Source: an uncultured Candidatus Saccharibacteria bacterium (lineage in GTDB: Bacteria; Patescibacteriota; UBA1384; CAYJQE01). From it: a DNA stretch of 64,000 nt. Below, in pieces: positions 1,519 through 24,437 of this stretch. Made by a program: the position numbers and the translations under genes. The notes below the pieces were generated by a model that searched no databases, had not been told where the DNA came from, and was given only the letters and a program-made list of their open reading frames with translations. The DNA lies in the NCBI GenBank assembly GCA_964372245.1, contig CAYJQE010000002.1:206-64205 (forward strand). The letters run 5' to 3'. How positions within the stretch are numbered: position 1 is the stretch's first letter; every line of letters starts with the position of its first letter.

Positions 1519-2304
1519 ATGAATCTCTCAATTGTCATCCCGGCCTACAACGAGGAGAAAAGCATCAAAGGAACGGTCGAGATTTTGACCGACGAGCTTG
1601 ATCGCCAGCCGATCGAGTATGAGGTTTTGGTTGTTTGCGACGGCAATTCCGATCGCACCCACGAAGCGGCGGTCTCGATCGGACATCAAAAGGTCCGGGT
1701 CTATCGCTATCAGCCGAATCAGGGCAAGGGCTTTGCTCTCAAGTTCGGCAGTCTGAAAGCCAATGGCGACCTGGTTTGTTTCTATGACGCCGGTGGCGAC
1801 TACAGTCCCGATCAGGTTGTTTTCTTTTATCACTTAATGAAAAACACCGACATAGACGGCGTTATCGGCTCGAAGAGGCACATCGGTTCGGTAGTTGATT
1901 ATCCAAAAATTCGTCGGCTCTACTCTTTTACTTATCAGGTTTTAGTTCGCCTTCTTTTCGGGCTCAATATCAGAGACACCCAAGTCGGCTTGAAGATTTT
2001 TCGGGCCGAGGTTTTAAGACGAGTTTTGCCAAGAGTCCTAGTCAAGCGCTATGCCTTCGATCTCGAGCTCTTGGTCGTTGCCAAAACTTTGGGTCATCGG
2101 AAGATTATCGAGGCGCCGGTCAAGATGGATTTTAACCAGATGGCGACTGGCATCACTCTCTTGACGATTCGAAATATGTTGAAGGACACCCTGGCTATCT
2201 TCTGGCGCGATCGGATTCTCCGCGACTACAGCCGCCGGTTTCCGGATAAAGGGATACCCGCGGCCGACGCGGCCACGGGTATCGAGGTGACGATTGGCGA
2301 CTAG
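1519..2304 (+). CDS. Family 2 glycosyltransferase (Dpm1/GtrB-like catalytic domain)
   Basis: N-terminal 'IVIPAYNEE' motif, DxD-type 'CDGNSD'/'YDAGGD', GT-A fold hallmarks. ATG start. Confidence 0.75.
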   Translation: MNLSIVIPAYNEEKSIKGTVEILTDELDRQPIEYEVLVVCDGNSDRTHEAAVSIGHQKVRVYRYQPNQGKGFALKFGSLKANGDLVCFYDAGGDYSPDQVVFFYHLMKNTDIDGVIGSKRHIGSVVDYPKIRRLYSFTYQVLVRLLFGLNIRDTQVGLKIFRAEVLRRVLPRVLVKRYAFDLELLVVAKTLGHRKIIEAPVKMDFNQMATGITLLTIRNMLKDTLAIFWRDRILRDYSRRFPDKGIPAADAATGIEVTIGD

Positions 2305-2324
2305 CTCGATCAGCTGAGAAAGCT

Positions 2325-3407
2325 TTAAGACCTTGATGCTGACTGGTCATCCCACCAAAGCTCGATTGGCTCTTTAGTCAGACGGAACTCAAGCGCTTGA
2401 CCGCCAGTATCAAGCCCGGCCTTGTTAAGGGCAAGCTTTACCTCATGGGCGCTATCGGGTGGGGCGAAAAAGGCGATAACGCCACCGCCGCCAGCGCCGC
2501 AGATCTTGGCGCCTTGAGCCCCAGCTTTGAGGCCGACCGTGATAAACTGGTCAATCAGATCGTTGCTGACTGATGGATGGAGACTAAGGTGAGCCGCTCG
2601 AGCCTCGTTCATAATTGGTCCAATCGCCAAGAGGTCGCCCTCTAAAAGGGCTGATCGCGCTTTACGGGCGCACTGGCTCATCTTCTGAAGGGCGGCCAAG
2701 ACTGGAGGATCTTGGTCTCTAATGCCCGTTGTCACCCGGTCGAGAACATTTTTAGCCGATCGAGAAATGCCGGTAAAGAAGAGAACCAGCCTTGATTCGA
2801 TCTGTTGGATGAGGCTTCTGTTGAGGGACAAGGCTTCTATCTCTAAGCCTTCGCCAACGATCCAATTGTAGAATTTCAATTCGCCAGAGATTGTCGGATG
2901 GTACTGATCTTGCCAGCCGTACCAGGAGTTAAGCGCTTCCTTTTCAGCCGAGATCGTCATCCGAGCCAAGTCGTGGTTTGTAAAACCGGTTTGAGTAACA
3001 ACATTGGCCATGGCGGCAGAGAGGTAGGCGACAGCTGAGCCGGTGCCCAGACCAACGCCTTCTGGCGTGAAAGTCTCGGTTGAGAACTCCAGATTGACCC
3101 GAGCTTCGTGGAGCCGAAATCGGCGAAAGATCTCAATCACCAAGCCAAAATCCTCATCGTCGGATCGAGCTTCTCTCGACCCGACAAAGATCCGACGCCT
3201 GAACCCTTCTTGAGTCCGGCCGCGCTTGGTCAAGTTAAAGACCGGCTCACCACTCGTTATTTCTAACCTTGCCTCGATGCAAATGGTTGTCGTGAGAGCC
3301 AAAACACAGGCTCCGTATTGGGCCGAATAACGGTGCTGATCAGACATTCCCGAGAACGGGTCAGCCCGAAGATTAACTCGACCGCATAGCGTTCTTCCTT
3401 TGATCAT
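2325..3407 (-). CDS. GHMP-family sugar kinase
   Basis: GHMP motifs 'GLGTGSAVAYLSAA' and 'ICGAGGGGVIAFF'. Start placed at internal ATG (3407) preceded by perfect SD AAGAGGTGA. Longer ORF to 3467 is probably a 5' extension. Confidence 0.7.
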   Translation of the reverse strand: MIKGRTLCGRVNLRADPFSGMSDQHRYSAQYGACVLALTTTICIEARLEITSGEPVFNLTKRGRTQEGFRRRIFVGSREARSDDEDFGLVIEIFRRFRLHEARVNLEFSTETFTPEGVGLGTGSAVAYLSAAMANVVTQTGFTNHDLARMTISAEKEALNSWYGWQDQYHPTISGELKFYNWIVGEGLEIEALSLNRSLIQQIESRLVLFFTGISRSAKNVLDRVTTGIRDQDPPVLAALQKMSQCARKARSALLEGDLLAIGPIMNEARAAHLSLHPSVSNDLIDQFITVGLKAGAQGAKICGAGGGGVIAFFAPPDSAHEVKLALNKAGLDTGGQALEFRLTKEPIELWWDDQSASRS

Positions 3408-3509
3408 TTGATCACCTCTTTCAATGTTCTTCGCCAGTTTCTGGCTAGATAGCAGCAATGCTAGCATGGGCGGTTAATCGGTGACAACAAAAATCGAGCG
3501 CGAAACGAT

Positions 3510-4610
3510 ATGAATAACATGAACTTTGGGCGAGAAATTGAAAGCGGTCTGCTAGAATACTGGTTTGTGCCAAACGGAAAGAAAAAGAGGCAGCCAGTTT
3601 CGGTCATTGTCGCTCTCCTCGAGCCGAACGACTATTTGAGGGAAACGTTTGAAGCGATCTCGAGGCTCAAGTTACAGCCGGCCGAGGTGATTGTTTTGCC
3701 TAACAGGAAACCTCCGGCCGCCAGAATCAAGAATCTGGAATTGAGAATCAAGAAAGAAGGAGGACCGCCTATTCGCTGGATCGCGACCGCTCGGTCCGAG
3801 CCTTCGATTAAGCGAAACATCGGGGTTCAGAAGGCGAAGTCGGAAATAGTCGCTTTTTTAGACGACGATTCCTACCCGGTTGATGGCTGGCTTGAGCGGG
3901 CCCTGCCTCACTTTAAAGACAAGCGGGTTGTCGGTGTCGGTGGGCCGGCAATTACCCCGGAGTCTGACGATTTTTTGAAGCAGGTCTCGGGCGCGGTTTT
4001 CGAGTCGTTTCTCGGAGGCGGGACGGCTCGCCACCGCTATCTCTCGCTCGGTCGGACCCGGCCAACCGACGACTGGCCGACCGTTAATCTTTTGGTCCGT
4101 AAAGAATCATTTACAGCGGCTGGCGGCTTTGATAAGAGATATTGGCCGGGAGAAGACACAAAACTCTGTTTTGATCTTGTAAAAAAAGGCGGACAGATTG
4201 TCTATCAACCAGACTCGATCGTCTACCATCATCGCCGGAGCGATCTTTCAAAACACCTTCGTCAAATCTTGCAATATGGCAAGCATCGCGGCCATTTTGC
4301 CCGACTTGGCCACCAAACCTCCCTCCGTTTTGGCTACCTTTTGCCAAGTCTCTTCCTGCTCTACCTAATTGGTCTCTTGATTCTTTTATTGGTCAGGTTC
4401 CCCCAAACTCCTTTGGCCCGACTCTTGACACCGCTTGGCCTCTACGGTCTGGGATTGATAATTGACGGCCTGATTACAACGATTCGTCATCGCCATATCC
4501 TGATCGGGCTTACGACAATAGTCATGATTCCGTTGACTCATATTTCTTACGGTTTGGGATTTATTCTTGGTCTGTTCCAGCCGCCGCCCCGATCAGTCAA
4601 GGACTACTAA
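3510..4610 (+). CDS. Family 2 glycosyltransferase with C-terminal transmembrane domain (CsbB/GtrB/ArnC-like polyprenyl-phosphate glycosyltransferase architecture)
   Basis: GT-A catalytic region ('VVGVGGPAITPESDD', 'FLDDDS') followed by ~4 hydrophobic helices at the C-terminus. Confidence 0.65.
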   Translation: MNNMNFGREIESGLLEYWFVPNGKKKRQPVSVIVALLEPNDYLRETFEAISRLKLQPAEVIVLPNRKPPAARIKNLELRIKKEGGPPIRWIATARSEPSIKRNIGVQKAKSEIVAFLDDDSYPVDGWLERALPHFKDKRVVGVGGPAITPESDDFLKQVSGAVFESFLGGGTARHRYLSLGRTRPTDDWPTVNLLVRKESFTAAGGFDKRYWPGEDTKLCFDLVKKGGQIVYQPDSIVYHHRRSDLSKHLRQILQYGKHRGHFARLGHQTSLRFGYLLPSLFLLYLIGLLILLLVRFPQTPLARLLTPLGLYGLGLIIDGLITTIRHRHILIGLTTIVMIPLTHISYGLGFILGLFQPPPRSVKDY

Positions 4611-4672
4611 TGAGCGGCGGAAAATCACGATTTAGCTTAAATAAAATACTGCTCCTCTTTTGCCAGATTGAC

Positions 4673-4700
4673 TTGACAAGGGCCGACCGATCCCTAGAAT
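4673..4700 (+). promoter_or_regulatory. Sigma70-like promoter (TTGACA-16-TAGAAT) plus AAGGAG SD for the downstream radical-SAM-like gene
   Basis: TTGACA at 4673-4678 and TAGAAT at 4695-4700. AAGGAG at 4726-4731 precedes ATG 4744. Confidence 0.5.
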
Positions 4701-4743
4701 TGGGATTGTGCGTCAATAACCCTAGAAGGAGTTTATTAGAATC

Positions 4744-6291
4744 ATGAAGGTTGTGGTTGGCTATCCGGCCATGCCCTCGGAGAAGGGGGCGGCTCTGATC
4801 TCTCAAAATCGTCAGTTTCAATACTTTAACGCCCCGACTTTTATCTTTCCGGTTGTGCCGGCTTATGCCGCGACAATGGTCAGAGGCGACGGCCATGAGG
4901 TGGTTTGGCTTGACGGCGTGGCCGAAGAGATGGATTATGATCAGTATCTCGCCGCCTTGGAAGAGGCCGATGCCGATATTTTGGCAATCGAGTCGAAGAG
5001 TCCGACGATTCGACGGTTCTGGAAGCTGATCAACTATGTCAAAGACCAGCCGGAGTTCAAAAAGCTGAAGATTGTTCTAATGGGCGATCATGTGACCGCT
5101 TTGCCGAAAGAGTCGCTTTTGAACTCGAGGGTCGATTTTGTTTTGACCGGCGGCGATTATGACTTCGCTCTCCGGAATTTAGTTCGGTTTCTCGAGGGCA
5201 AAGAGAAGCTTGAATCGGGGGTTTATTGGCGGAACCGAAAGACCGACAAGATAGAGACCAGCGGTAAATTTGAGATTACCCACCAACTGACCGAGCTGCC
5301 CTTAATGGACCGGGAACTGGTTAAGTGGCGGCTCTATTCCGAGGCGAACGGCAATTTTAAGCACCTGCCGGGGACCTACACGATGTTTGGCCGAGACTGC
5401 TGGTGGCGGAAGCCGAACGAGGACTCGGTCTCGAAGGGCGTTGGTTGCACCTTTTGCTCTTGGACCTCGATCTTTCCGAATTTTCGAACGATGAGCGTTG
5501 ATCAGGCGATCGCCGAGGTCAAAGAGTGCATTAGGCTTGGCATCAGGGAGATTTTTGACGACACCGGCACTCTGCCGATTGGACCCTGGCTGAAGGAATT
5601 TTGCGAGCGAATGCAGGCCGAAGGTTTGGAGAAACAGATCGTTATGGGTTGCAATATGCGGGCCAACGCTCTCAACCGAGAACAGTATCAGATGCTCGGC
5701 CGGACCAATTTCCGATTCATCCTTTATGGGGTTGAGTCTGGCTCACAGCGAACGCTTGACATGTTGAACAAGGGGACAAAATGGGACGATATCAAACAGG
5801 CGACCCAATGGGCGAAGGAGGCCGGTCTCGATCCCCATCTCACCTGCATGGTCGGCTATCCTTGGGAAACGAAAGAGGAAGCCCAATCAACGATCGATCT
5901 CGCCCGAGGGCTTTTTGACAAGGGCCATGTTGATACCCTTCAGGCGACGATCGTGATGCCTTATCCTGGAACCCAGCTTTACAAGCAGTGCGTCGAGAAC
6001 GGCTGGCTTCGGTTTGGCGAGACCGAGTATGAGTATCTCGATATGCGCGGACCGGCCATGATCAGCCCAATCCCCGACGACGAAATCTACGAGCTGACCC
6101 AAGAGCTCTATAAGGCTTTCCTGACGCCGCGCTACATCTGGCGGCGGCTCTCGACAATTCGCTCCTTTGACGATCTTCAGTTTATCTATCGGGCCGCCAA
6201 GCAGTTCTTTGGACACACGCTTGACTTTTCGGCTAGGGGCAACAAGAAGCTCCGAGCGGCGGAATTGGCCGAGATTCAGACCGGATTCTGA
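4744..6291 (+). CDS. B12-binding-domain / radical SAM-like protein (probable sugar C-methyltransferase or epimerase-type tailoring enzyme)
   Basis: 515 aa. N-terminal Rossmann-like B12-binding region, central Cys cluster 'DCWW...GVGCTFCSW' and TIM-barrel-like core typical of class-B rSAM. Canonical CX3CX2C not obvious. Confidence 0.5.
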   Translation: MKVVVGYPAMPSEKGAALISQNRQFQYFNAPTFIFPVVPAYAATMVRGDGHEVVWLDGVAEEMDYDQYLAALEEADADILAIESKSPTIRRFWKLINYVKDQPEFKKLKIVLMGDHVTALPKESLLNSRVDFVLTGGDYDFALRNLVRFLEGKEKLESGVYWRNRKTDKIETSGKFEITHQLTELPLMDRELVKWRLYSEANGNFKHLPGTYTMFGRDCWWRKPNEDSVSKGVGCTFCSWTSIFPNFRTMSVDQAIAEVKECIRLGIREIFDDTGTLPIGPWLKEFCERMQAEGLEKQIVMGCNMRANALNREQYQMLGRTNFRFILYGVESGSQRTLDMLNKGTKWDDIKQATQWAKEAGLDPHLTCMVGYPWETKEEAQSTIDLARGLFDKGHVDTLQATIVMPYPGTQLYKQCVENGWLRFGETEYEYLDMRGPAMISPIPDDEIYELTQELYKAFLTPRYIWRRLSTIRSFDDLQFIYRAAKQFFGHTLDFSARGNKKLRAAELAEIQTGF

Positions 6292-6377
6292 TTTTTGATC
6301 AAGGTCCGTTTAAGAACCGCCCGATCAAGACGGTCGCCTCTGTTCGGGGCGCCTATTTTTGGTTATGCTAGCCGAGT

Positions 6378-7463
6378 GTGAAAAACTCGCGCGTTTTGCC
6401 GACGATTTCGATTCTGACCGCGACCTATAACTCGATTCGGACCCTGCCCGATTATCTCAAGGCGATCGAGCTTCAAGATTATCCAAAGGGGCGGATCGAG
6501 CTCTGTTTTGGCGATGGCGGCTCAACCGACGGGACATTGGAGTTTCTGAACAGAATCAGGGCCGAAAAGACCGATCGCTCGACGCCCGATGGTCAAGCGA
6601 ACGGTTTTCGGGCGGTTAGAATTGTTCACAATCGGTTGAAGACCGGCGAGAGCGGCAAGGCGGCGGCCTTGAAAGTCTCAACCGGCCAGTATGTCGCCTT
6701 GGTTGATTCCGATAATCTTTTGCCGACAAAGGACTGGCTGAAAGAGATGATCAGGCCGCTTGAAGAGGATCAAGAGCTGATTGGCTCGGAGCCGCTTGGC
6801 TATAGCTATCGGCCTTTCGATCCGGCCCTCACTCGCTACTCGGCTCTCCTTGGCATGAACGACCCGCTTGTTCATTTTCTCGGCAATTATGATCGGTTCA
6901 ACACTCTGACCGGCCGTTGGACCGAGTCGCCCCTTGATCTCCTTAAAGAGACCGAGAGCGAGATAATCATCGGTCTCAAGCCGGAAAACTTGCCGACGAT
7001 TGGAGCCAACGGCACCGTCCTGCGTCGAGAATTGATGCTCAAAATGGTTGGCGATTCCGATTATCTCTTTGACATTGACGAAATTGCCAAGCTGTCGGCT
7101 CTGGGCCGGAACAGGTTTGCCAAGGTCAAAAACGAGATCGTCCATCTTTATGCCGGCGACCTGAAAACCTTTGCCCGGAAGCAAAATCGTCGGGTGAGAG
7201 ATTTTTTCTATTATCGAAAGGCTGGCGTTAGACATTTTACCTGGGGCGGGCCTTCGAGGTGGCGGTTAATCTATTTTGCTTTCGCCTGTCTGACCGTCGT
7301 CCCGCTCCTTTGGCAGGCGGCCAAAGGCTATCTCAAGAAACCCGATTCGGTCTGGCTTCTCCACCCGATCTATTGCGAGATTACCTTTTACGTTTATCTC
7401 GCCGGCTTTCTGAAAAGTCTGTTCAGGCCGGAGATCGCCTCAAGAGAGACTTGGAGCCAGTGA
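6378..7463 (+). CDS. Family 2 glycosyltransferase with C-terminal TM helices (polyprenyl-phosphate sugar synthase-like)
   Basis: 'ISILTATYNSIRTLPDYL...CFGDGGSTDGT' GT2 N-terminus and 'LVDSDN' DxD. Hydrophobic C-terminal ~70 aa. GTG start. Confidence 0.7.
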   Translation: MKNSRVLPTISILTATYNSIRTLPDYLKAIELQDYPKGRIELCFGDGGSTDGTLEFLNRIRAEKTDRSTPDGQANGFRAVRIVHNRLKTGESGKAAALKVSTGQYVALVDSDNLLPTKDWLKEMIRPLEEDQELIGSEPLGYSYRPFDPALTRYSALLGMNDPLVHFLGNYDRFNTLTGRWTESPLDLLKETESEIIIGLKPENLPTIGANGTVLRRELMLKMVGDSDYLFDIDEIAKLSALGRNRFAKVKNEIVHLYAGDLKTFARKQNRRVRDFFYYRKAGVRHFTWGGPSRWRLIYFAFACLTVVPLLWQAAKGYLKKPDSVWLLHPIYCEITFYVYLAGFLKSLFRPEIASRETWSQ

Positions 7464-9598: not shown

Positions 9599-10000
9599 GA
9601 GGCTGAAAGGGACGATTCGGTCAGCTAAAGATTGCGGCTCCAAAAAAGAGCCAAAAATTCCGCTGATCGGGCTTTCACATTTAGCAAACCCCTGTCGAAA
9701 CGGGTAAAGAGTTATCTGAAACTGGTTATTGGCTGGACCATGACAGCCAGTCTCTAAACCGACATGGGGAGCCTTGATCAAGGTGGGAGTGAAGGAAGAT
9801 AATAAAATGTCCTCTTTTCGACCGAAGATTCTGCTTTGGCGCAGTAGTGCCGATCCTCTACCATCTCGGCGCCAACGAGGTCATCTTCGCCCCTCAGAGG
9901 GGAACCTACTCGCTCCCCGTTCCTCATCAGGAAATGTTGAAAATTTATCAAGAGACTTGGCTTGAGGGAGAAGGACAAGAGTAGAGGAATTAAAAGCCCA

Positions 10001-10025
10001 AACCCGCCCCGGATCGGGGCGGGTT
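10001..10025. terminator. Bidirectional intrinsic terminator hairpin between convergent genes
   Basis: Perfect inverted repeat AACCCGCCCCG-GATC-GGGGCGGGTT. T-rich tract (TTTTAATT) follows on the minus-strand transcript. Confidence 0.6.
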
Positions 10026-10030
10026 CGTTG

Positions 10031-11035: not shown

Positions 11036-11151
11036 CACATCACTCCTTTTTCAAAGTCGGATTTCCAATCAACTCTATTCGAGCTGGTTTGGCTGTCAAG
11101 CTCGATTGACAGCCATCTTGGTCTGGTCTAGCTTCGATACCAGATCGGACT

Positions 11152-11847: not shown

Positions 11848-11923
11848 GTTTGCGCTTTCCGATTAAAAGAGCGATCATTCGGCTCAAAGCTCTAATCAAG
11901 GACTGAAAAGGAGGCGGGAGATC

Positions 11924-15089: not shown

Positions 15090-15092
15090 AGG

Positions 15093-18545: not shown

Positions 18546-19090
18546 AATTTCTTTTCAAGCTCGAGTCTTTCGATCAAAACGATCTCATTGATCTGGTAGA
18601 GCCGGTCGGGCTGAACTGTCTTTGAAACCGCGAATCTTAAAGCCTCGATTTTTTCTTTAACCCTTTTTGCCAAAACGATCTCGCGACTGATCTGGGTGTT
18701 CCTTTTAATGATCGCTAAAGTTTCAAAATCTGAAGCCCCCTCTTTTTTGATCATCAGGCTAAAGTCAACCGGCATTCTGGCTAAACTGCTCTCGATGACG
18801 ATCTTCGAGAGCGGTTTTGGGGTTTTTAGGCTGACCTCGAAGGTTGAGAGCTGATCATCGTCGATCGAGCCAAACCAAAAAGAGTCGAGATCGCCGTCAA
18901 TCGTCGAGGAGGGACTGCCGCCTCTCTCTGGACGATAACCGAGGGTTGCCCGGCCGGAAACCGTCAATTCGCAGGCGCAGGGAAAATCTATGGTCTCTTT
19001 TTCGATTTTGACGATTGTGACAACCCGACTGATGAGGAAGAGAAAAAACAGACCGTTTAAGAACCAAAAAAATGCCGTCAAGCGTTTCAT
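18542..19090 (-). CDS. Small signal-anchored discoidin (F5/8 type C)-like domain protein, translationally coupled (ATGA overlap) to the downstream giant membrane protein
   Basis: Start taken at internal ATG 19090 ('MKRLTAFFWFLNGLFF' signal/anchor). 'DGDLDSFWFGS' matches the discoidin-like block of the 24464 protein. Stop TGA overlaps ATG of the 15093-18545 gene. Confidence 0.5.
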   Translation of the reverse strand: MKRLTAFFWFLNGLFFLFLISRVVTIVKIEKETIDFPCACELTVSGRATLGYRPERGGSPSSTIDGDLDSFWFGSIDDDQLSTFEVSLKTPKPLSKIVIESSLARMPVDFSLMIKKEGASDFETLAIIKRNTQISREIVLAKRVKEKIEALRFAVSKTVQPDRLYQINEIVLIERLELEKKL

Positions 19091-19185: not shown

Positions 19186-20907
19186 ATGGTTAAATTTCGA
19201 TTAGCCGGAGATCAAGAACTGGCCAGCCCGATCGAGGCCGGTCTTTACGATCGGCCCTATTTTGAGACCCTTAATCGGGGTTTTCTCGACTATCAGGTCG
19301 GCGCGATTCATCCCAAACTTAAGAAGGCGGTCTCGATGATCAAGGGCGAGAATCGGCGAGTCCTTGATATTGGTTCGGGTCGAGGCGAGTTCGCGGCCAG
19401 CGCCGCCTCGGACGGCCACCTTGTGATCGGTCTTGATTATTCCCGCTCGGCCATCGAACTGGCCGAGGATTATGTCTCTCGTCTGCCGGCCGATGTCAAA
19501 GCTCGAATCGGCTTTGTGCAAAAGGACGCCAAGAGCCTTGGCTTTGAGTCGGAATCATTCGATGTCGTCTCGCTGCTTGACGTCGTCGAGCATCTCCATC
19601 CCTGGGAGCTCGACCGGGCGATTTCCGAGGTCTATCGAGTCTTAAAGCCGGGTGGCCAGCTGATCGTTCACACCAGTCCGAACCGACGGTTAATGGCTCC
19701 GGTCCGGTCTCTTGGTCGGCTTTTTGGCTTTAGGACAAAAAGCGAGCGGTATCACGTTAATGAGCAGACGCCAAAGTCAATCGGGGCTTACTTAAAGGGC
19801 TTCAAGTTCACAGTCGAACTGGAGCGGGACCGAGATTTCTGGGCTTGGATGTTTCGGCCCGGCGACCGGCTGTTATCGGTCGCGAAGTTAGCCGATTTTA
19901 TTGTTGATTTTCCTCTTTGGTCTTGGCTCTTTGATCGCTGGCCGCTGAATCGCGTGTTTGCGACCGATATCTGGATTGACGCTCGAAAAAAAATCGGCGG
20001 CGGTCGTCTGGTTTTAACGGAGGAGGGGGAACGGAGGCTTTCGAAGATTCTCTCGAAGGTCGGCGATCTCAATTTTCGACGACGGATCTTGACGATGCTT
20101 GAGTATCTCGATATTAAGGATGGCGAGACGATTCTCGATGCCGGCGCGGGCGAGGGCTTTTACAGCCTGATTTTTTCCGAGCTCTATCCCAATTCAACGA
20201 TCGAGGCCTTTGATTATGATCCCGAGCTGGTCTCAATGGCGAAGAGCTGGCTCAAAGAGAGACCGAAAGTGATGATCCGGCTAGCCGACATCGTCCGCCT
20301 GCCTTATCTCGATCAAACTTTCGATAAGATCGTTTGCACCGAAGTTTTGGAGCATCTGCCCGACGACCGGATGGCGATGAAGGAGCTTTGGCGGGTTTTG
20401 AAGCCGGGCGGGACTTTGGCCATCACCGTTCCGAATCGTAACTATCCGCTCCTCTGGGACCCCCTGAACAAAATCAGGGAGCTTCTTCGTCTCGGTCATT
20501 TTTCCGGCCGACACGGTCTGCTTGGCGGCATCTGGGCGCTCAACCACTTTCGCCTTTACTCCCCGCTTGAACTTAAAGATCTGGTCGAGAAAAGCGGCTT
20601 TCTTTGCCGAGATCTTCGGGGCTTGACCCATTACGGTCTGCCCTTTAATCATCTGATCCTTTATCTTGGCAAGCAGTTTTACACCAAACTGCCGGTTCCG
20701 GAATCGATTCGGAGGGAGATGGAGAAATTTGAGTGGGACAGGGGAGAGAAGGGTCAAAAGGCTGAAAACCGGGGATTGGGTCTCCTCAAGGCCGGGCTCT
20801 GGCTGCTCAGGCTCACCGATAGTCTGAACGATCATTTTCATAATGAACACAATCTTTCGGTCTCGAGCATGGCGGTCTCGGCCAAGGCCGTGAAACCTAA
20901 AAGCTAA
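19186..20907 (+). CDS. Tandem two-domain class I SAM-dependent methyltransferase
   Basis: Two separate motif-I/post-I sets: 'VLDIGSGRGEFA...VLKPGGQLIV' and 'ILDAGAGEGFYS...VLKPGGTLAI'. 573 aa. Confidence 0.75.
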   Translation: MVKFRLAGDQELASPIEAGLYDRPYFETLNRGFLDYQVGAIHPKLKKAVSMIKGENRRVLDIGSGRGEFAASAASDGHLVIGLDYSRSAIELAEDYVSRLPADVKARIGFVQKDAKSLGFESESFDVVSLLDVVEHLHPWELDRAISEVYRVLKPGGQLIVHTSPNRRLMAPVRSLGRLFGFRTKSERYHVNEQTPKSIGAYLKGFKFTVELERDRDFWAWMFRPGDRLLSVAKLADFIVDFPLWSWLFDRWPLNRVFATDIWIDARKKIGGGRLVLTEEGERRLSKILSKVGDLNFRRRILTMLEYLDIKDGETILDAGAGEGFYSLIFSELYPNSTIEAFDYDPELVSMAKSWLKERPKVMIRLADIVRLPYLDQTFDKIVCTEVLEHLPDDRMAMKELWRVLKPGGTLAITVPNRNYPLLWDPLNKIRELLRLGHFSGRHGLLGGIWALNHFRLYSPLELKDLVEKSGFLCRDLRGLTHYGLPFNHLILYLGKQFYTKLPVPESIRREMEKFEWDRGEKGQKAENRGLGLLKAGLWLLRLTDSLNDHFHNEHNLSVSSMAVSAKAVKPKS

Positions 20908-20915
20908 TTTTTCCC

Positions 20916-21794
20916 TTGCTCGGCCAACTTAGCGGGCTTTTCTGGTCGTTTCGGCCAAACCAGTGGGTCAAAAATCTGGTTGTCTTAATTCCGCTGTTCT
21001 TTGCCGGCCAGCTCTTGAATCCCGACCTTTTTCGGTTGGCTTTGGCCGGAGCGCTGCTCTTCATTCTTGCCTCATCGGCCGCTTATTTGATCAACGATCT
21101 CTTCGATCTCCCGCTTGATCGGAAACTGCCGGTCGGTCTCAAGCGACCGATCGCTCGAGGTCGGGTCTCGACAAGGCTTGTGGCTTTCGCGATCGTCCTT
21201 CTTGTTTTCGGAGCGATTTCGATCTCGTTCAAACTTGAGCCGAAGTTTGGCTTGGTCATTCTTGGTTATCTGATCTTAAACATCCTCTACTCGGCCGGTC
21301 TTAAACAGCTGGCGCCGCTCGACGTCTTTATTGTCGCCTTGGGCTTTGTTCTCCGGGTGATCGGCGGCAAGGTTTTGACCGATCTGCCGAGCAGTCCCTG
21401 GCTCTTTTTGGGAACATTTTTTATCGCCCTCCTGCTTGTCCTTTCGAAGCGCTTTGTCGAAGCGAGGCTTTTTCTCGGGCGGGCGGTTGAGAAAAGGCGG
21501 GCCATTGGTCTCTATCAACCGGAACTCTTAAAATCCTGGTTAAATATTGCCGTCGCCGCCGTCCTCGTCGTCTACGCTCTCTACTCGATTGATTCCGAGG
21601 TTGTCGCCGCCTCGGCTCGGAGCGATCTCTTTGTCTACTCGATCGTCTTCGTGACCTTCGGTCTTTTTCGCTATCTTCAGCTGCTTTATCAGGGGGAAGA
21701 GGCCGGCTTTCTCGGTCCCTTAAAACGCGACCCGGCCTCCTGGCTGAACGGACTCTTCTGGCTTGGTTATACGGGCTTTATTCTCTATTTCTAG
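20916..21794 (+). CDS. UbiA-family prenyltransferase, decaprenyl-phosphate phosphoribosyltransferase (DPPR synthase)-like
   Basis: 'RPNQWVKNLVV' N-terminus and 'INDLFDLPLDRK' NDxxDxxxD motif characteristic of the Rv3806c-type subfamily. ~8 TM. TTG start. Confidence 0.65.
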   Translation: MLGQLSGLFWSFRPNQWVKNLVVLIPLFFAGQLLNPDLFRLALAGALLFILASSAAYLINDLFDLPLDRKLPVGLKRPIARGRVSTRLVAFAIVLLVFGAISISFKLEPKFGLVILGYLILNILYSAGLKQLAPLDVFIVALGFVLRVIGGKVLTDLPSSPWLFLGTFFIALLLVLSKRFVEARLFLGRAVEKRRAIGLYQPELLKSWLNIAVAAVLVVYALYSIDSEVVAASARSDLFVYSIVFVTFGLFRYLQLLYQGEEAGFLGPLKRDPASWLNGLFWLGYTGFILYF

Positions 21795-21964: not shown

Positions 21965-22294
21965 GTGGCCTATTTTTTGCTCTTTCTCGCCTCTTTGGCC
22001 AATGCTTTGGCCAATCTTTTTATTCGGGCGGCCTCTTTCGAGCCGTTCGGTCTTAACCGTCTTTTTAAGCCCGCCAGCTGGTTTGGCATTCTGCTCTTTC
22101 TGGTCGCTCTCGCGCTTTACTCCGAGAGCCTTCACCGGCTCGGAATTGTCGTCTCCTACCCAATCTTCGGCCTTTTGAGTCTGTTTTTGATTATCTTTTT
22201 CGGTTACCGGCTTTTTCAAGAACCGATCTCGGCCAGCCAGATTCTTGGTTTTCTTTTGGCCGGGCTGGCGATTGTTCTTATCAGCCGGGGTTAG
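21965..22294 (+). CDS. Small 4-TM SMR/ArnE-ArnF-like (DMT superfamily) membrane protein, candidate lipid-linked sugar flippase subunit
   Basis: 109 aa, four hydrophobic helices. GTG start. Adjacent to the UbiA-like gene. Confidence 0.5.
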   Translation: MAYFLLFLASLANALANLFIRAASFEPFGLNRLFKPASWFGILLFLVALALYSESLHRLGIVVSYPIFGLLSLFLIIFFGYRLFQEPISASQILGFLLAGLAIVLISRG

Positions 22295-23364
22295 AAAAAG
22301 GCCTTGGCGAGCTTGAGAATCCCTTCTTTAACCGGCCGACGGTGGGTCGTGCCGTAGCGCTTGGCATAAAAAGCTCGATGCTCTCGATACCAGCTCAAGG
22401 CGGCCAAAAGCAGATCGAGGTTCGAATCCTTTGACCGCCAGCCAAGAACCCTCTCGGCCTTCCGGCAATCAAAGTAAAAAGCCGCGTCCGGAGTCTCAAA
22501 GTGCCAGTCAACCAGAGGCGAGAGACCGAGCCGATCGAGACCCCTCAAGGCGATTTTCGCCAGTTTGGGATTGATTGGTCTGACCCTTGATTTTGAGCTA
22601 ACCGCTTGGGCCAGAGCTTCGAGATCGGCCTTGACGGTCTGGTAGCTTCTCGCTCCGAGGTTGAAATCTTCGTTTTTGGCCTCTTTCCGAAGAAGAGCGA
22701 TCAGGCCGTTTACGACATCTCGACTCGAAACTAGCTGGAAGAGGTTCTCGCCCGAACCAATGATCGGAATCTTTCTCCCCTCGCTTATCCAGTCAAAGAG
22801 GAGAGCGAAGATTCCCAGTCGGCCCGGACCGACGATCGTTCGCGGTCTTAAAATCGAGAGATCGAACCGGCTGTTTCGGCTTGTTCGACAGAGCTCTTCG
22901 GCCAAAAACTTTGACCGGCCGTAGTCGCCAAGCGGCGCCAGCCGGGTCTGTTCGGTGATTGGCAGATCGAGCTCGCGTGGTCTGCCATAAACCGCGCTGG
23001 TCGAAACAAAAATAAACTTTTCGGTTCTTCCCTTGGCCAGCTCGAGCAGCCTTTTTGTCGCCTGAACATTGACCCTCTCATAATTTTTTCCAGCCTTGGC
23101 GATCGGCAAGACGGCGGCGAGATGAATTACATATTTAACCTTTGAGGCGGCCCTTTCAAGGGCCTTTTTTTCGGTCAGGTCAGCCTTTTGATACTCGACC
23201 GTCAAAGGCAGCTCAACCGGTCGTTCGTCTCGGTCAATCACTCTGACCGAAAAACCCTCCGCCACTAATTTTTGGCAGAGCGGGATACCGAGAAAACCGG
23301 CCCCGCCAGTCACCAGGACCAGATCCCCCTTGCCGTTTTTTCGAGCCGTTTTGACCGCTCTCAT
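22291..23364 (-). CDS. NAD-dependent epimerase/dehydratase (extended SDR)
   Basis: 'LVLVTGGAGFLGIPLCQKLVAEGFSVRVIDR' Rossmann motif and 'YGRSKFLAE' YxxxK. Confidence 0.75.
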   Translation of the reverse strand: MRAVKTARKNGKGDLVLVTGGAGFLGIPLCQKLVAEGFSVRVIDRDERPVELPLTVEYQKADLTEKKALERAASKVKYVIHLAAVLPIAKAGKNYERVNVQATKRLLELAKGRTEKFIFVSTSAVYGRPRELDLPITEQTRLAPLGDYGRSKFLAEELCRTSRNSRFDLSILRPRTIVGPGRLGIFALLFDWISEGRKIPIIGSGENLFQLVSSRDVVNGLIALLRKEAKNEDFNLGARSYQTVKADLEALAQAVSSKSRVRPINPKLAKIALRGLDRLGLSPLVDWHFETPDAAFYFDCRKAERVLGWRSKDSNLDLLLAALSWYREHRAFYAKRYGTTHRRPVKEGILKLAKAFF

Positions 23365-23438
23365 TTTTTGATCTTTCGCCCTTTAGGCCTTCAATCTAAT
23401 CGTTCGGTCAGTGGGGAAGTCAATGAGACTTTTAAACG

Positions 23439-24437
23439 TCAGGTGAGCCGACCGTTGGCCTCTGCCCACTCAACCGCCCGCTCGATAGCTTCCTCGACCG
23501 TTCTTTTTGGTCTTAAGCCGAGGAGCTTTTCCGCTTTTTGGCCGGAGGCGGCGATGGCTCGCGTCGTCTCGCCAAGAATATGGAGGGTTGGGTTGTAGAT
23601 TCCCAGTCTGGCTGTCAAAAGATCGAGCCTCTCGGCCAAAATCGCCGGCCAGGCCGGGAATCGCCTGATCCTCAACTCCACCTTGAGGGCTTTGGCCAAG
23701 AGAGCGAGGAACTCGCCGGTTCGGTAGGGCCGGTTAGAAACGATCCAAAACAGCTCGCCAGCCGCCCTTTTGTGAGCGACGGCAACGATCATCGCCTCGA
23801 CCAAGTTCTCGACCGGCGTGAAACTTCGTGGCTTGTCAGCGGAGCCGAAAATTGGCACTCGGCCTTGTTTGACCAGTTTCATTAAGACGGTCATTCGCTC
23901 GGGCTGCTCTTCGCCAATATACATTGATGGTCGAAGAACGACCGTTTCAAGACCTTGGCCGTGAGCGGCCAGGACCGCCTCTTCGGCCAAGAGTTTGCTC
24001 TTGCCGTAAGGGCTCTCCGGTCTCGGTTCGTCTTCCTCGGTCATCGTTCGATTGAGTCGGTCGGAAAAACCGGCCGCCGCGTTCGAGCTGACAAAAATAA
24101 AACGGCCGGCTCGGTCTTTGGCCGCCTCAAGCATATTTTTTGTCCCTTGGCTGTTTACCTGATAAAAGGAGCTTGTAGTTTTTGGATGGATGACGCCGGC
24201 GGCGTGGAAGACAATGTCGGCCGGTTCCTTAAAGAGAGCCTTTAAACTCTCCTTATTGGCGACATCGCCGATCTCGACCTTGATCTTCGAAGCAATATCC
24301 GGCGGCAGTCGGTCAGAGTCGGCCTCTCTGACGAGAGCGACAATCTTAAAGCCCTCGTTCAAGAGCCGACGGGCCAGCCGGTTGGCCAACCAGCCGGGCA
24401 GACCGGTGATCACCGATTTTCTCTTCAAATCGCTCAT
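23439..24437 (-). CDS. NAD-dependent epimerase/dehydratase (extended SDR)
   Basis: 'VITGLPGWLANRLARRLLNEGFKIVALVR' and 'YGKSKLLAE' YxxxK. Confidence 0.75.
   Translation of the reverse strand: MSDLKRKSVITGLPGWLANRLARRLLNEGFKIVALVREADSDRLPPDIASKIKVEIGDVANKESLKALFKEPADIVFHAAGVIHPKTTSSFYQVNSQGTKNMLEAAKDRAGRFIFVSSNAAAGFSDRLNRTMTEEDEPRPESPYGKSKLLAEEAVLAAHGQGLETVVLRPSMYIGEEQPERMTVLMKLVKQGRVPIFGSADKPRSFTPVENLVEAMIVAVAHKRAAGELFWIVSNRPYRTGEFLALLAKALKVELRIRRFPAWPAILAERLDLLTARLGIYNPTLHILGETTRAIAASGQKAEKLLGLRPKRTVEEAIERAVEWAEANGRLT

What the first reader, a model, noticed from the sequence alone, without database searches (positions are those of the whole stretch)
1519..24437. Complete logic for several lipid-linked monosaccharide donors, including a DPPR-synthase-like UbiA enzyme, in a non-actinobacterial context
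The locus combines three GT2 enzymes with CsbB/GtrB-type architecture (one has only the catalytic domain, two have C-terminal TM helices). It also has an SMR/ArnE-F-like 4-TM protein at 21965 and a UbiA-family enzyme at 20916 with the NDxxDxxxD motif of decaprenyl-phosphate phosphoribosyltransferase (Rv3806c type). Two SDR epimerase/dehydratases follow immediately at 22291-24437. In Corynebacterineae, UbiA plus an oxidoreductase pair make decaprenyl-phospho-arabinose, which GT-C arabinosyltransferases then use. Here the same gene logic sits next to the YfhO/GT-C paralogs, suggesting a polyprenyl-phospho-pentofuranose (ribose/arabinose-type) donor feeding extracytoplasmic GT-C enzymes. There is no DprE1-type FAD oxidase. 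If an oxidation/epimerisation occurs, it would have to be done by the SDR pair alone.
Basis: partly seen in the sequence, partly recalled or inferred. Interest (0 to 1): 0.7.

Follow-up and report, generated by a model that had tools for sequence, protein, structure and literature searches.

The report
Lipid-linked pentose sugar donor gene module
This gene group most likely makes a lipid-carried five-carbon sugar inside the cell, alters it, flips it outward and attaches it to surface glycans; the pathway type was described in 2024, and this copy is an unusual variant with two sugar-modifying enzymes instead of one.

Summary
The genes are real and at the stated coordinates. The UbiA protein (20916-21794) belongs to the Rv3806c/PPPRS clade: DPPR-synthase models score 132-171 bits against 53 or less for any other UbiA subfamily. 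Rv3806c is its only solved relative (E 1e-28). NDxxDxxxD and 10 of 13 PRPP/lipid-phosphate contact residues are kept.

It sits beside a 4-TM SMR-like protein, two extended SDRs, a tandem methyltransferase and a 665-aa membrane protein. Three of that protein's few homologues reach the Pfam cut-off for PMT_2, a GT-C family.

This matches the "three-component" pentofuranose glycosylation system of Kelly et al. 2024 (PPPRS, small flippase, GT-C, optional SDR epimerase). Homologues occur in dozens of non-actinobacterial phyla and are already auto-annotated, so the context is not new.

What is unusual:
- Two SDR clades sit together. Each is found singly next to PPPRS genes in unrelated genomes.
- There is no DprE1/DprE2 and no phosphatase in the window.
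- The GT-C family is very rare and carries an N-terminal discoidin-like domain.

Only one of the three GT2 enzymes is DPMS/GtrB-like. The "YfhO" label has no support. The final sugar is unknown.

Verdict: a new variant of a known kind, of moderate interest.

The parts
20916..21794 (+). UbiA-family polyprenyl-phosphate 5-phosphoribosyltransferase (PPPRS/DPPR-synthase clade), 292 aa
   Evidence: - NCBIfam DPPR-synthase models score 171, 161 and 132 bits, and the HAD-UbiA model 155 bits. Every other UbiA subfamily scores 53 bits or less.
- The only PDB relative is Rv3806c (8j8j), E 1e-28 over residues 5-287.
- Residue mapping to Rv3806c: R22, K28, Y70, N73, D77, D81, R90, Y138, K143 and K191 are identical. 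Q135 is N, Y157 is F and K208 is R. K87 is replaced by G74.
- The second Asp-rich motif is replaced by K178-R179-x-x-E182, as in Rv3806c.
21965..22294 (+). 109-aa, 4-TM SMR/DMT-type protein; candidate flippase for the lipid-linked pentose
   Evidence: - Pfam Multi_Drug_Res 24.0 bits (cut-off 23.7) and EamA 18 bits.
- Four predicted TM helices.
- A 104-aa counterpart sits in the same position in L001, 25% identical, pairwise E 0.001.
- The role is inferred from the EmrE/ArnE-like ORF14 of Kelly et al..
22291..23364 (-). Extended SDR, clade A (GGAGFLG, YGRSK), 357 aa, cytoplasmic; candidate epimerase or oxidoreductase acting on polyprenyl-P-pentofuranose
   Evidence: - Pfam Epimerase 139 bits. 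Best NCBIfam matches are HpnA, GalE and OleD.
- No TM helix.
- Homologues (32-46% identity) lie next to PPPRS genes in L001, L028, L047 and L088, and 8 kb away in L030.
23439..24437 (-). Extended SDR, clade B (GxPGWLA/G, YGKSK), 332 aa, cytoplasmic; second candidate modifying enzyme
   Evidence: - Pfam Epimerase 116 bits. Best NCBIfam matches are HpnA, OleD-type reductases and thioester reductase.
- 27% identical to clade A.
- Homologues (33-57% identity) lie directly downstream of PPPRS genes in L094 and L097, next to clade A in L001, and next to clade A about 9 kb from the PPPRS gene in L030.
24464..26461 (+). 665-aa membrane protein: N-terminal TM anchor, discoidin (F5/8C)-like domain, then about 12 TM helices; candidate GT-C glycosyltransferase of PMT_2 type
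   Evidence: - Weak F5_F8_type_C match, E 0.0015.
- Only 7 homologues among 1.84 billion representatives.
- Three of them (P0123, P0125, P0128) pass the Pfam PMT_2 gathering score with 37, 50 and 27.8 bits against 26.1. P0123 and P0125 have the same N-terminal discoidin domain.
- The AF2 model was too poor to use, pLDDT 47.7.
19186..20907 (+). 573-aa protein with two class-I SAM methyltransferase domains, ending 9 nt before the UbiA gene; possibly a sugar O-methyltransferase
   Evidence: - Two Methyltransf_11/25 domains.
- NCBIfam matches are generic (CpaM, UbiG, UbiE); MftM, an oligosaccharide methyltransferase, scores 73.7 bits on domain 1.
- Conserved upstream of UbiA in L001 at 53% identity. 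A single-domain methyltransferase lies next to UbiA in L047.
- Methyltransferases were the commonest neighbour family among de-duplicated PPPRS loci, 5 of 148 neighbouring ORFs.
18542..19090 (-). 182-aa TM-anchored discoidin-like protein, overlapping by 4 nt the start of the 1150-aa membrane protein
   Evidence: - F5_F8_type_C, E 1.8e-4.
- 33% identical over 60 aa to the discoidin part of 24464-26461, E about 5e-6.
- The 182-aa start follows the gene call in L002.
15093..18545 (-). 1150-aa membrane protein: about 9 N-terminal TM helices, a large extracytoplasmic part and a C-terminal anchor; candidate GT-C-like enzyme, unproven
   Evidence: - No Pfam family, and no YfhO match at E <= 10.
- Paralogue of 31481-35272 (30% identity) and 35253-38009 (26%).
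- An invariant D-W-x-I-P follows TM1 in all four paralogues.
- The AF2 model is unusable, pLDDT 37.6.
29108..38009 (+). Three further large membrane proteins (772, 1263 and 918 aa), paralogous to the 1150-aa protein
   Evidence: BLASTP E 6e-130 and 6e-33 to the 1150-aa protein. The 772-aa protein is only weakly related, E 8e-4. One has a weak CBM_4_9 match.
1519..2304 (+). 261-aa soluble GT2 of the DPMS/GtrB/ArnC/PpgS type; plausible polyprenyl-phosphate hexose synthase
   Evidence: PDB 5mlz (dolichol-P-mannose synthase) E 1e-11, GtrB 5ekp E 1e-6, ArnC E 2e-6. NCBIfam PpgS, dolichyl-phosphate hexose transferase and AglJ at E about 1e-12, all far below their cut-offs.
3510..7463 (+). GT2 with 3 C-terminal TM helices (3510-4610), B12-binding radical SAM enzyme (4744-6291) and GT2 with a C-terminal TM helix (6378-7463). 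No link to lipid-linked donors was shown.
   Evidence: Matches are MftF-like (119 bits), HpnJ-like (143 bits against a cut-off of 578) and 6yv7-like (E 4e-7).

Best explanation
The segment 19186-26461 encodes a pentofuranose version of extracytoplasmic 'three-component' glycosylation, embedded in a large Wzx/Wzy-type surface-glycan cluster.

Step 1 (strong homology): the UbiA-family enzyme transfers 5-phosphoribosyl from PRPP to a polyprenyl phosphate on the cytoplasmic face.

Step 2 (inferred, no gene found here): a phosphatase encoded elsewhere removes the 5-phosphate, giving polyprenyl-P-beta-D-ribofuranose.

Step 3 (inferred from gene association and one published precedent): the two cytoplasmic extended SDRs convert the lipid-linked ribose through keto intermediates into another pentofuranose. 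By precedent a C3 epimer (xylofuranose) is the most likely single change. The tandem methyltransferase may add O-methyl groups at some stage.

Step 4 (inferred): the 4-TM SMR-like protein flips the donor.

Step 5 (inferred from family membership of homologues): the PMT_2-type GT-C with its discoidin-like carbohydrate-binding domain transfers the pentose to a glycan or protein acceptor outside the membrane. The other large membrane paralogues may be further such transferases.
For: - UbiA clade assignment and PRPP/5-phosphate/ribose contact residues are conserved (residue roles from PMC10994848).
- The experimentally characterised prototype has the same parts list: PPPRS, an EmrE/ArnE-like 4-TM protein, a GT-C with a CBM, and a cytoplasmic GalE-like SDR that alone converts Ribf to Xylf (PMC11127046).
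- The order methyltransferase-UbiA-small TM-SDR A-SDR B-polytopic membrane protein is conserved in the only close relative, L001. Identities there are 58% for UbiA, 46% and 57% for the SDRs and 53% for the methyltransferase. Its downstream gene gives a weak PMT_2 hit.
- Each SDR clade recurs next to PPPRS genes in distant lineages:
  - Clade A: Lentisphaerales (a two-gene SDR-UbiA unit among unrelated genes), Gracilibacteria (UbiA-HAD-SDR) and L088 (UbiA...PHP phosphoesterase-SDR-PMT_2).
  - Clade B: L094 (UbiA-SDR-radical SAM) and L097 (UbiA-SDR-PMT_2 GT-C at 68.8 bits).
- Three of the seven homologues of the 665-aa protein pass the PMT_2 threshold.
- PMT_2/GT39 genes flank annotated DPPRS homologues elsewhere.
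- Both SDRs lack TM helices and score best against lipid-substrate SDR families such as HpnA and OleD.
Against: - No biochemical data exist for any protein here.
- No phosphatase is encoded in the 64 kb.
- K87 of Rv3806c, a beta-phosphate contact whose K87A mutant loses 82% activity, is Gly in this subclade. H84 is Leu.
- The UbiA scores below all NCBIfam equivalog cut-offs (171 against 234).
- The SMR assignment is borderline.
- GT-C status of the 665-aa protein rests on transitive homology. It has no Pfam hit of its own, no PDB hit for the family profile and a failed structure model.
- The SDRs also resemble nucleotide-sugar enzymes at E about 1e-18, and the cluster is full of nucleotide-sugar genes.
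- Orthology of either SDR to ORF13 could not be tested.
Confidence: 0.62

Rival explanations
1. The UbiA, small TM protein and GT-C make and use plain polyprenyl-P-ribofuranose. The two SDRs and the methyltransferase are ordinary nucleotide-sugar or glycan-tailoring enzymes of the surrounding polysaccharide cluster and do not act on the lipid-linked donor.
For: - Both SDRs match UDP-glucose 4-epimerases, UDP-GlcA decarboxylases and dTDP-glucose dehydratases at E 1e-13 to 1e-18.
- The window holds many nucleotide-sugar genes: GalE-like, NTP transferase, WecB and GHMP kinases.
- The SDRs are on the opposite strand from UbiA.
- Ribf-only systems without an epimerase exist, such as C. youngae O1 and the Lactococcus plasmid.
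Against: - Clade A and clade B SDRs recur directly beside PPPRS genes in unrelated lineages. Examples include a minimal SDR-UbiA pair flanked by ABC-transporter and translation genes (L028) and a UbiA-SDR-GT-C triple (L097).
- Seven of about 137 PPPRS loci (about 1.7 Mb in total) carry one of these specific clades, five of them within 1.7 kb of the UbiA gene.
Confidence: 0.17
2. One reading: the SDR pair replaces DprE1/DprE2. One SDR oxidises C2' of polyprenyl-P-ribose and the other reduces the 2'-keto intermediate, giving polyprenyl-P-arabinofuranose for GT-C arabinosyltransferases.
For: - There are two SDRs, matching the two-step DprE1/DprE2 logic.
- DprE1 and DprE2 are absent.
- DprE2 is itself an SDR (established knowledge of the DPA pathway).
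Against: - In the published survey all Araf systems carried DprE1/E2 homologues, and the SDR went with Xylf.
- Each SDR clade occurs alone beside PPPRS genes (L028, L047 and L088 against L094 and L097). This argues that each is self-sufficient rather than half of an obligate pair.
- L030 carries DprE1, DprE2 and both SDR clades. The SDRs are therefore not simply a substitute for C2 epimerisation.
Confidence: 0.1
3. The UbiA enzyme is a conventional prenyltransferase (quinone or ether-lipid type) working with the UbiE/UbiG-like methyltransferase upstream. It has nothing to do with sugars.
For: The upstream methyltransferase hits UbiG (102 bits) and MenG/UbiE (92 bits) models. JGI names many homologues '4-hydroxybenzoate polyprenyltransferase'.
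Against: - UbiA, MenA, MqnP, DGGGPS, CyoE and ChlG models score 53 bits or less, against 132-171 bits for DPPR synthase models.
- The residues that bind ribose and its 5-phosphate are conserved. The structure paper says these are not shared with prenyltransferases.
- The second Asp-rich motif is replaced by KRxxE.
- The methyltransferase hits are generic class-I matches spread over many families.
Confidence: 0.03

Closest known systems
Citrobacter youngae O1/O2 ORF12-ORF15 three-component pentofuranose side-chain system (Kelly, Duong, Nothof, Lowary, Whitfield, PNAS 2024; PMC11127046)
   Same: - A UbiA-family PPPRS using PRPP.
- A small 4-TM EmrE/ArnE-like putative flippase next to it.
- A GT-C transferase carrying a carbohydrate-binding domain.
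- A cytoplasmic extended SDR instead of DprE1/E2.
- The module is embedded in a surface-polysaccharide locus.
   Different: - There is no fused HAD phosphoribose-phosphatase domain and no separate phosphatase in the window.
- There are two SDRs of different clades rather than one.
- The CBM is an N-terminal discoidin-like domain rather than a C-terminal Ig-like domain.
- The GT-C belongs to a very rare PMT_2-related family; GT136 membership could not be tested.
- A tandem methyltransferase sits immediately upstream of the synthase gene, 9 nt away.
- The host cluster is Wzx/Wzy-type, not ABC-transporter-type.
Decaprenyl-phospho-arabinose pathway of Corynebacterineae (Rv3806c, Rv3807c, DprE1, DprE2, Rv3789, Emb/Aft GT-C enzymes)
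   Same: The first enzyme is homologous; Rv3806c is the only solved relative (E 1e-28). The overall logic is the same: a lipid-linked pentofuranose is made from PRPP and used by GT-C enzymes outside the membrane.
   Different: No DprE1, DprE2 or PAP2 phosphatase is present. The small protein is SMR-like rather than GtrA-like. The GT-C is PMT_2-type rather than Emb/Aft. The product sugar is probably not arabinose.
DprE1/DprE2-type PPPRS loci outside actinobacteria (P. aeruginosa PA7 pilin arabinosylation as cited in PMC11127046; Chondrinema litorale plasmid NZ_CP111066.1; Weeksellaceae loci L053-L082)
   Same: A PPPRS homologue with GT39/PMT_2-type GT-C genes nearby.
   Different: Those loci have a FAD oxidase, a classical SDR and usually a HAD phosphatase directly downstream of the UbiA gene. 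About 25 of 87 loci show this. The window has none of these.
Lactococcus cremoris plasmid pF27D EPS locus (hypothetical 462 aa, DPPRS, HAD-IB phosphatase, GtrA)
   Same: A PPPRS module inside a Wzx/Wzy-type exopolysaccharide cluster of a non-actinobacterium.
   Different: It has a phosphatase and a GtrA-type small protein and no SDR, so it is presumably a ribofuranose system.
ArnC/ArnE-ArnF/ArnT lipid A L-Ara4N modification
   Same: The flow is the same: a polyprenyl-P-pentose donor, an SMR-type flippase and a PMT_2-family GT-C.
   Different: In Arn the donor is made by a GT2 enzyme (ArnC) from a UDP-sugar, and the sugar is modified at the nucleotide level. Here it is made by a UbiA enzyme from PRPP.

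Membership tests
Three-component pentofuranose glycosylation system (PMC11127046) | UbiA-family polyprenyl-phosphate phosphoribosyltransferase with N-D-x-x-D-x-x-x-D in cytoplasmic loop 1 and the PRPP contact residues | tested here: met
   The motif is N60/D61/D64/D68. Ten of 13 Rv3806c substrate-contact residues are identical and three are conservative or tolerated substitutions. K87 is lost. DPPRS HMMs score 132-171 bits.
Three-component pentofuranose glycosylation system (PMC11127046) | Phosphoribose 5-phosphatase (fused HAD PRP domain or separate enzyme) | tested here: not met
   The UbiA protein is 292 aa with no extra domain. No HAD, PAP2 or PHP protein was found among the annotated ORFs, by tblastn with HAD/PHP seeds, or by motif scan of all six frames. 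It could be encoded outside the window.
Three-component pentofuranose glycosylation system (PMC11127046) | Small 4-TM EmrE/ArnE-like transporter adjacent to the synthase | tested here: met
   The protein is 109 aa with 4 predicted TM helices. Pfam Multi_Drug_Res scores 24.0 bits against a cut-off of 23.7, which is borderline. It is conserved by position in L001. Flippase activity is not testable here.
Three-component pentofuranose glycosylation system (PMC11127046) | GT-C fold glycosyltransferase in the same locus | tested here: inconclusive
   The 665-aa neighbour has no family hit of its own. Homologues P0123, P0125 and P0128 pass the PMT_2 gathering score. The AF2 model has pLDDT 47.7 and the family profile has no PDB hit.
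Three-component pentofuranose glycosylation system (PMC11127046) | The GT-C belongs to CAZy family GT136 (ORF12-like) | not testable with these tools
   No ORF12 sequence was available in any accessible collection.
Three-component pentofuranose glycosylation system (PMC11127046) | Auxiliary cytoplasmic SDR epimerase orthologous to ORF13 (optional feature) | tested here: inconclusive
   Both SDRs have Gly-rich NAD motifs and YxxxK and lack TM helices. The ORF13 sequence is shown only as an image in the supplement, so orthology could not be tested.
Corynebacterineae DPA pathway | DPPR synthase equivalog (NCBIfam curated cut-off) | tested here: not met
   Scores are 171 against 234, 161 against 207 and 132 against 474 bits. 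The protein is in the same clade but is not an equivalog.
Corynebacterineae DPA pathway | DprE1 FAD oxidase and DprE2 reductase | tested here: not met
   No FAD_binding_4 or adh_short gene was found. tblastn with DprE1/DprE2-like seeds from L014 and L054 found nothing below E 0.3.
Classical UbiA/MenA aromatic or ether-lipid prenyltransferases | Best match to a prenyltransferase subfamily model, and a second Asp-rich motif for a second Mg2+ | tested here: not met
   All such models score 53 bits or less. The position of the second motif reads K178-R179-F-V-E182, as in Rv3806c (KRYAE).
GtrB/CsbB/DPMS/ArnC polyprenyl-phosphate glycosyltransferases (GT2) | Catalytic domain homologous to DPMS/GtrB/ArnC | tested here: met
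   Met for 1519-2304 only: 5mlz E 1e-11, 5ekp E 1e-6, ArnC E 2e-6. Not met for 3510-4610 (no PDB hit) or 6378-7463 (only 6yv7 and TarP-like hits).
GtrB/CsbB/DPMS/ArnC polyprenyl-phosphate glycosyltransferases (GT2) | C-terminal TM helices following that catalytic domain | tested here: not met
   The one GT2 with DPMS/GtrB homology has no predicted TM helix. The two GT2s with TM helices lack the homology.
YfhO-type GT-C | Match to Pfam YfhO (PF09586) | tested here: not met
   No YfhO hit for any of the five large membrane proteins, even at E <= 10. The topology (N-terminal TM bundle, large outside domain, C-terminal anchor) and an invariant Asp after TM1 are compatible with a GT-C but prove nothing.

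The most novel reading that the evidence does not exclude
The two SDR clades found here may be regiospecific epimerases acting directly on polyprenyl-P-pentofuranose, one at C2' and one at C3'. Each occurs alone beside PPPRS genes in other lineages. Alone, they would give a DprE1/DprE2-independent route to Araf and the known route to Xylf. Together, as in this window, L001 and L030, they would make polyprenyl-P-D-lyxofuranose. Kelly et al. note that this sugar has never been found in any solved glycan. It might be further O-methylated by the adjacent tandem methyltransferase.
Probability: 0.1. Interest if true: 0.75.

Novelty: new variant of a known kind. Interest (0 to 1): 0.4.

Why it matters
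If the scheme is right, this locus extends the recently defined pentofuranose three-component pathway to an uncultured lineage. That lineage has no close relatives in the GTDB species representatives or in the JGI metagenome contigs scanned. The locus also brings a different GT-C family.

More usefully, it points to two distinct SDR families that travel with polyprenyl-phosphoribose synthases. Only one lipid-linked pentose SDR epimerase has been characterised. Assigning the regiochemistry of these two clades would let sequence alone predict which pentofuranose (Ribf, Xylf, Araf or possibly Lyxf) decorates a surface glycan. It would also test whether Araf can be made without DprE1, the target of several anti-tuberculosis drug candidates.

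The practical value is modest, because the organism is unknown and nothing here overturns current understanding.

Tried and rejected
- Structure-based GT-C tests failed. AF2 on the 665-aa protein with its 7 homologues gave pLDDT 47.7. AF2 on the N-terminal 480 aa of the 1150-aa protein with its 3 paralogues gave pLDDT 37.6. No fold search was run on these models.
- A profile of the 665-aa family found nothing in the PDB.
- Word-indexed homologue searches returned only the query itself for the 665-aa protein, and nothing for the 1150-aa N-terminus.
- The organism could not be identified. The window's protein is in NCBI and Logan without a name. The GTDB-representative scan gave at best 42% identity, and the metagenome scan mostly about 41% or less over most of the protein. 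There are no tRNA or Rfam hits.
- The ORF13 sequence, needed to place it among the SDR clades, is only an image in the supplement.
- A first 33-sequence alignment was too divergent for the locus finder.
- BLAST-level detection of GT-C and small flippase genes across the 142 loci fetched by then (137 with a detectable UbiA match) failed because these proteins are too divergent.
- The Pfam census of 148 neighbouring ORFs was diluted by naive ORF calling in high-GC loci.
- Tandem Repeats Finder did not report the protein-level repeat in the 1150-aa gene.
- Hopanoid biosynthesis was considered because of HpnA- and HpnJ-like hits. It was rejected: all scores are far below the cut-offs and no hopanoid core genes are present.
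- Quinone biosynthesis was considered because of UbiE/UbiG-like methyltransferase hits. It was rejected on the UbiA subfamily scores.

Full report
**What is in the sequence**

The window (about 52% G+C, no tRNA or Rfam hits) is almost entirely a surface-glycan biosynthesis region. It holds two Wzx-like flippases, a Wzy/O-antigen-ligase-like protein, nine GT4 and four GT2 glycosyltransferases and several nucleotide-sugar enzymes. It also holds five very large membrane proteins without any Pfam family.

The genes that matter for its hypothesis form a compact block:

| Coordinates | Strand | Product |
|---|---|---|
| 19186-20907 | + | tandem double SAM methyltransferase |
| 20916-21794 | + | UbiA-family enzyme |
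| 21965-22294 | + | 109-aa 4-TM protein |
| 22291-23364 | - | extended SDR |
| 23439-24437 | - | extended SDR |
| 24464-26461 | + | 665-aa membrane protein |

**The UbiA enzyme**

It does not.
- NCBIfam models for decaprenyl-phosphate phosphoribosyltransferase score 171, 161 and 132 bits. The HAD-UbiA fusion model scores 155 bits.
- The next best model of any other UbiA subfamily scores 53 bits. Heme o synthase, DGGGP synthase, UbiA, ChlG and MqnP all score lower, and MenA is absent.
- Against all PDB sequences the only relative is Rv3806c (8j8j), at E 1e-28 over nearly the full length.

I mapped the residues that the Rv3806c cryo-EM paper identifies as contacts for PRPP and decaprenyl phosphate (PMC10994848) onto the window protein.
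- R22, K28, Y70, N73, D77, D81, R90, Y138, K143 and K191 are identical.
- Q135 becomes N, which is the family consensus outside mycobacteria.
- Y157 becomes F, a change the paper reports in some mycobacteria.
- K208 becomes R.

The paper says the contacts for ribose and its 5-phosphate are not shared with true prenyltransferases, so their conservation here is informative. The second Asp-rich motif of classical UbiA enzymes is replaced by KRxxE, as in Rv3806c.

There are two caveats. The protein scores below all NCBIfam equivalog cut-offs. It and its only close relative also read DRKLPxG/T where the whole family has DRxHPxK. This loses K87, a beta-phosphate contact whose K87A mutant loses 82% activity. 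Nearby K70 or K76 may compensate, but that is inference.

**This kind of system is already described**

Kelly et al. (PNAS 2024, PMC11127046) showed experimentally how alpha-pentofuranose side chains of Citrobacter youngae O antigens are added.
- A UbiA-family polyprenyl phosphoribose synthase (ORF15, 31% identical to Rv3806c) makes undecaprenyl-P-Ribf from PRPP. It carries a fused HAD phosphatase.
- An EmrE/ArnE-like 4-TM protein (ORF14) is the predicted flippase.
- A GT-C enzyme with a carbohydrate-binding module (ORF12, the founding GT136 member) transfers the sugar in the periplasm.
- In serotype O2 a single cytoplasmic GalE-like SDR (ORF13) turns the side chain from Ribf into Xylf.

Their survey found DprE1/E2 homologues with Araf glycans and ORF13 homologues with Xylf glycans. 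It noted that Lyxf, which needs both C2 and C3 inversion, is unknown in nature. Its premise that the non-actinobacterial setting is special does not hold.

The homologue search returned more than 570 relatives. Sources include Terriglobia, Deltaproteobacteria, Poribacteria, Armatimonadota, Ignavibacteriae, Anaerolineaceae, Prevotella and Spirochaetes, and many are already named decaprenyl-phosphate phosphoribosyltransferase by NCBI.

They came from Acidobacteriota, Myxococcota, Bacteroidota, Planctomycetota, Nitrospirota, Gemmatimonadota, Gracilibacteria and others.

Two annotated plasmids show the pattern.
- A Lactococcus cremoris EPS plasmid carries hypothetical-DPPRS-HAD-GtrA.
- A Chondrinema plasmid carries GT39-hypothetical-DPPRS-FAD oxidoreductase-SDR-acyltransferase-GT39.

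**The other components in the window**

The 109-aa protein has four hydrophobic helices. It just passes the Pfam SMR threshold (24.0 against 23.7 bits) and has a weak EamA/DMT signal. A 104-aa counterpart occupies the same position in the related locus L001.

The 665-aa protein has an N-terminal anchor, a discoidin-like domain and about twelve further TM helices.
- It is nearly an orphan. An exhaustive HMMER search of 1.84 billion representatives found seven homologues.
- Three of them (P0123, P0125, P0128) pass the gathering score of Pfam PMT_2, the ArnT/PMT-type GT-C family. P0123 and P0125 share the N-terminal discoidin domain.
- PMT_2-type genes also sit next to PPPRS genes in L088, L097, L144 and, weakly, L001.

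I therefore regard it as a divergent GT-C with a carbohydrate-binding domain, but by transitive homology only. The AF2 model was unusable and the family profile finds nothing in the PDB.

The 1150-, 1263- and 918-aa proteins are paralogues at 25-30% identity. The 772-aa protein is weakly related.
- Their topology fits a GT-C: an N-terminal TM bundle, a large outside part and a C-terminal anchor. They share an invariant D-W-x-I-P just after TM1.
- There is no YfhO or other family hit, and the AF2 model failed.
- The 1150-aa gene is preceded, with a 4-nt overlap, by a 182-aa TM-anchored discoidin-like protein. This looks like a split version of the fusion seen in the 665-aa protein.

**The two SDRs, the distinctive part**

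Both have intact NAD-binding and YxxxK motifs and no TM helix. They are only 27% identical to each other. Their best curated-family matches are lipid-substrate SDRs (HpnA and OleD-type reductases), ahead of or level with GalE. PDB matches are to nucleotide-sugar epimerases, decarboxylases and dehydratases at E 1e-15 to 1e-18.

I fetched 140 PPPRS-type loci and asked what lies beside the UbiA gene. Among the 87 loci with at least 3 kb on both sides:
- about 25 have a DprE1-like gene, 23 a DprE2-like gene and 22 a HAD phosphatase within 6 kb;
- nine have an extended SDR within 3 kb.

Alignment separates these SDRs into three groups.
- **Clade A** contains the window's first SDR. Members lie next to UbiA in a Lentisphaerales MAG, where SDR-UbiA is an isolated pair between ABC-transporter genes and prfC. 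Others are in a Gracilibacteria MAG (methyltransferase, SDR and FAD oxidase on one side; UbiA-HAD-SDR-RmlC-RmlB on the other) and in L088 (GT4-WecB-UbiA-LPG_synthase_TM-PHP phosphoesterase-SDR-PMT_2).
- **Clade B** contains the second SDR. Members lie directly downstream of UbiA in L094 (UbiA-SDR-radical SAM) and L097 (UbiA-SDR-PMT_2 GT-C).
- **A GalE-like group** occurs in Armatimonadota loci (Bac_transf-SDR-UbiA-GtrA).

Clades A and B occur together, adjacent and in the same order, in the window, in L001 and in an Ilumatobacteraceae MAG (L030). L030 also has HAD, DprE1 and DprE2.

Each clade occurs alone elsewhere, so they are probably self-sufficient enzymes rather than two halves of a DprE1/DprE2-like pair. 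L030 has DprE1/E2 as well, so they are probably not just a replacement for C2 epimerisation. Which carbon each acts on, and whether either is the ORF13 type, could not be determined. The ORF13 sequence is available only as an image.

**What is missing or weak**

No phosphatase for the ribose 5-phosphate is encoded anywhere in the 64 kb. Related loci have a HAD (L047, L143) or PHP (L088) gene at that spot. From my own recollection of the mycobacterial literature, not checked here, Rv3807c is dispensable. An unlinked phosphatase is therefore plausible, but the logic is not 'complete'.

Of the three GT2 enzymes, only 1519-2304 resembles polyprenyl-phosphate glycosyltransferases (DPMS, GtrB, ArnC). 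It lacks TM helices. The two with TM helices resemble other GT2 types. 'Several lipid-linked monosaccharide donors' is therefore supported for at most one hexose-type donor plus the pentose donor.

**The methyltransferase**

The 573-aa tandem methyltransferase ends 9 nt before the UbiA gene. It is conserved there in L001 at 53% identity, and a single-domain methyltransferase lies beside UbiA in L047. Methyltransferases were the most frequent neighbour family in a de-duplicated census, 5 of 148 ORFs from 49 loci.

Its family matches are generic. They include MftM, an oligosaccharide 2-O-methyltransferase, on domain 1. O-methylation of the pentose or of the acceptor is a reasonable guess and nothing more.

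**Verdict**

The locus is best filed as a new variant of the three-component pentofuranose glycosylation system. Its distinguishing features are:
- two PPPRS-associated SDR clades together;
- no DprE1/E2 and no linked phosphatase;
- a rare discoidin-PMT_2-type GT-C;
- a linked tandem methyltransferase;
- a UbiA subclade lacking K87.

The lineage is poorly sampled. The only relative above 45% identity is a 5.4-kb Logan contig.

The most novel reading still open is that the two SDRs are C2- and C3-specific lipid-linked pentose epimerases that together make D-lyxofuranose. I put that at about 10%.

Noticed in passing
window 15621-15671 and 15720-15770 (- strand): An exact 17-aa repeat, LEQIGDSERQAVIAGYL, occurs twice, 33 aa apart, in the extracytoplasmic part of the 1150-aa membrane protein. 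This suggests a recent internal duplication. Tandem Repeats Finder reported nothing at the DNA level.
   Followed up: partly
window 18542-19090 (-) and 15093-18545 (-): A 182-aa TM-anchored discoidin-like protein overlaps by 4 nt the start of the 1150-aa polytopic protein. It looks like a split version of the anchor, discoidin and polytopic fusion at 24464-26461.
   Followed up: partly
window 8864-12571: A GDP-heptose-like gene set: NTP transferase, GHMP kinase on the opposite strand, a 120-aa SIS fragment and a 215-aa ORF with no family. The short SIS ORF suggests partial gene decay. A second GHMP kinase lies at 2325-3467.
   Followed up: no
window 3510-7463: A trio of genes: an MftF-like GT2 with three TM helices, a B12-binding radical SAM enzyme (HpnJ-like, 143 bits, far below the cut-off) and a PcManGT-like GT2. 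Together with the MftM-like methyltransferase domain at 19186-20907, this hints at radical-SAM and methyl tailoring of a glycan or glycolipid.
   Followed up: no
L028:8797-9834, L047:11702-12745, L088:12536-13582: The clade A SDRs of a Lentisphaerales MAG, a Gracilibacteria MAG and an unidentified low-GC contig are 67-68% identical. The adjacent UbiA proteins are only 36-39% identical. Either the SDR is under much stronger constraint or it has moved horizontally.
   Followed up: partly
window 20916-21794 (residues 68-78) and L001:1260-2126: This UbiA subclade reads DRKLPxG/T where the other homologues aligned read DRxHPxK or a close variant. It therefore lacks the equivalents of H84 and K87 of Rv3806c.
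   Followed up: partly
window 38145-42268 (-): A subtilase (Peptidase_S8) and a second protein both carry NBR1-type Ig-like domains (PF16158). They lie between the membrane-protein paralogues and a GH113-like hydrolase.
   Followed up: no
L143 (Lactococcus cremoris plasmid pF27D, NZ_CP068515.2 17372-31932): A mobilizable dairy-strain EPS plasmid carries hypothetical (462 aa)-DPPRS-HAD-GtrA beside Wzx, a Wzy-like gene and an LCP gene. This suggests ribofuranose decoration of a lactococcal exopolysaccharide. The 462-aa protein has no Pfam family.
   Followed up: partly
window 24438-24463: Only 26 bp separate the divergently transcribed SDR gene (23439-24437, -) and the 665-aa GT-C candidate (24464-26461, +). 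Any promoters must overlap coding sequence or each other.
   Followed up: no
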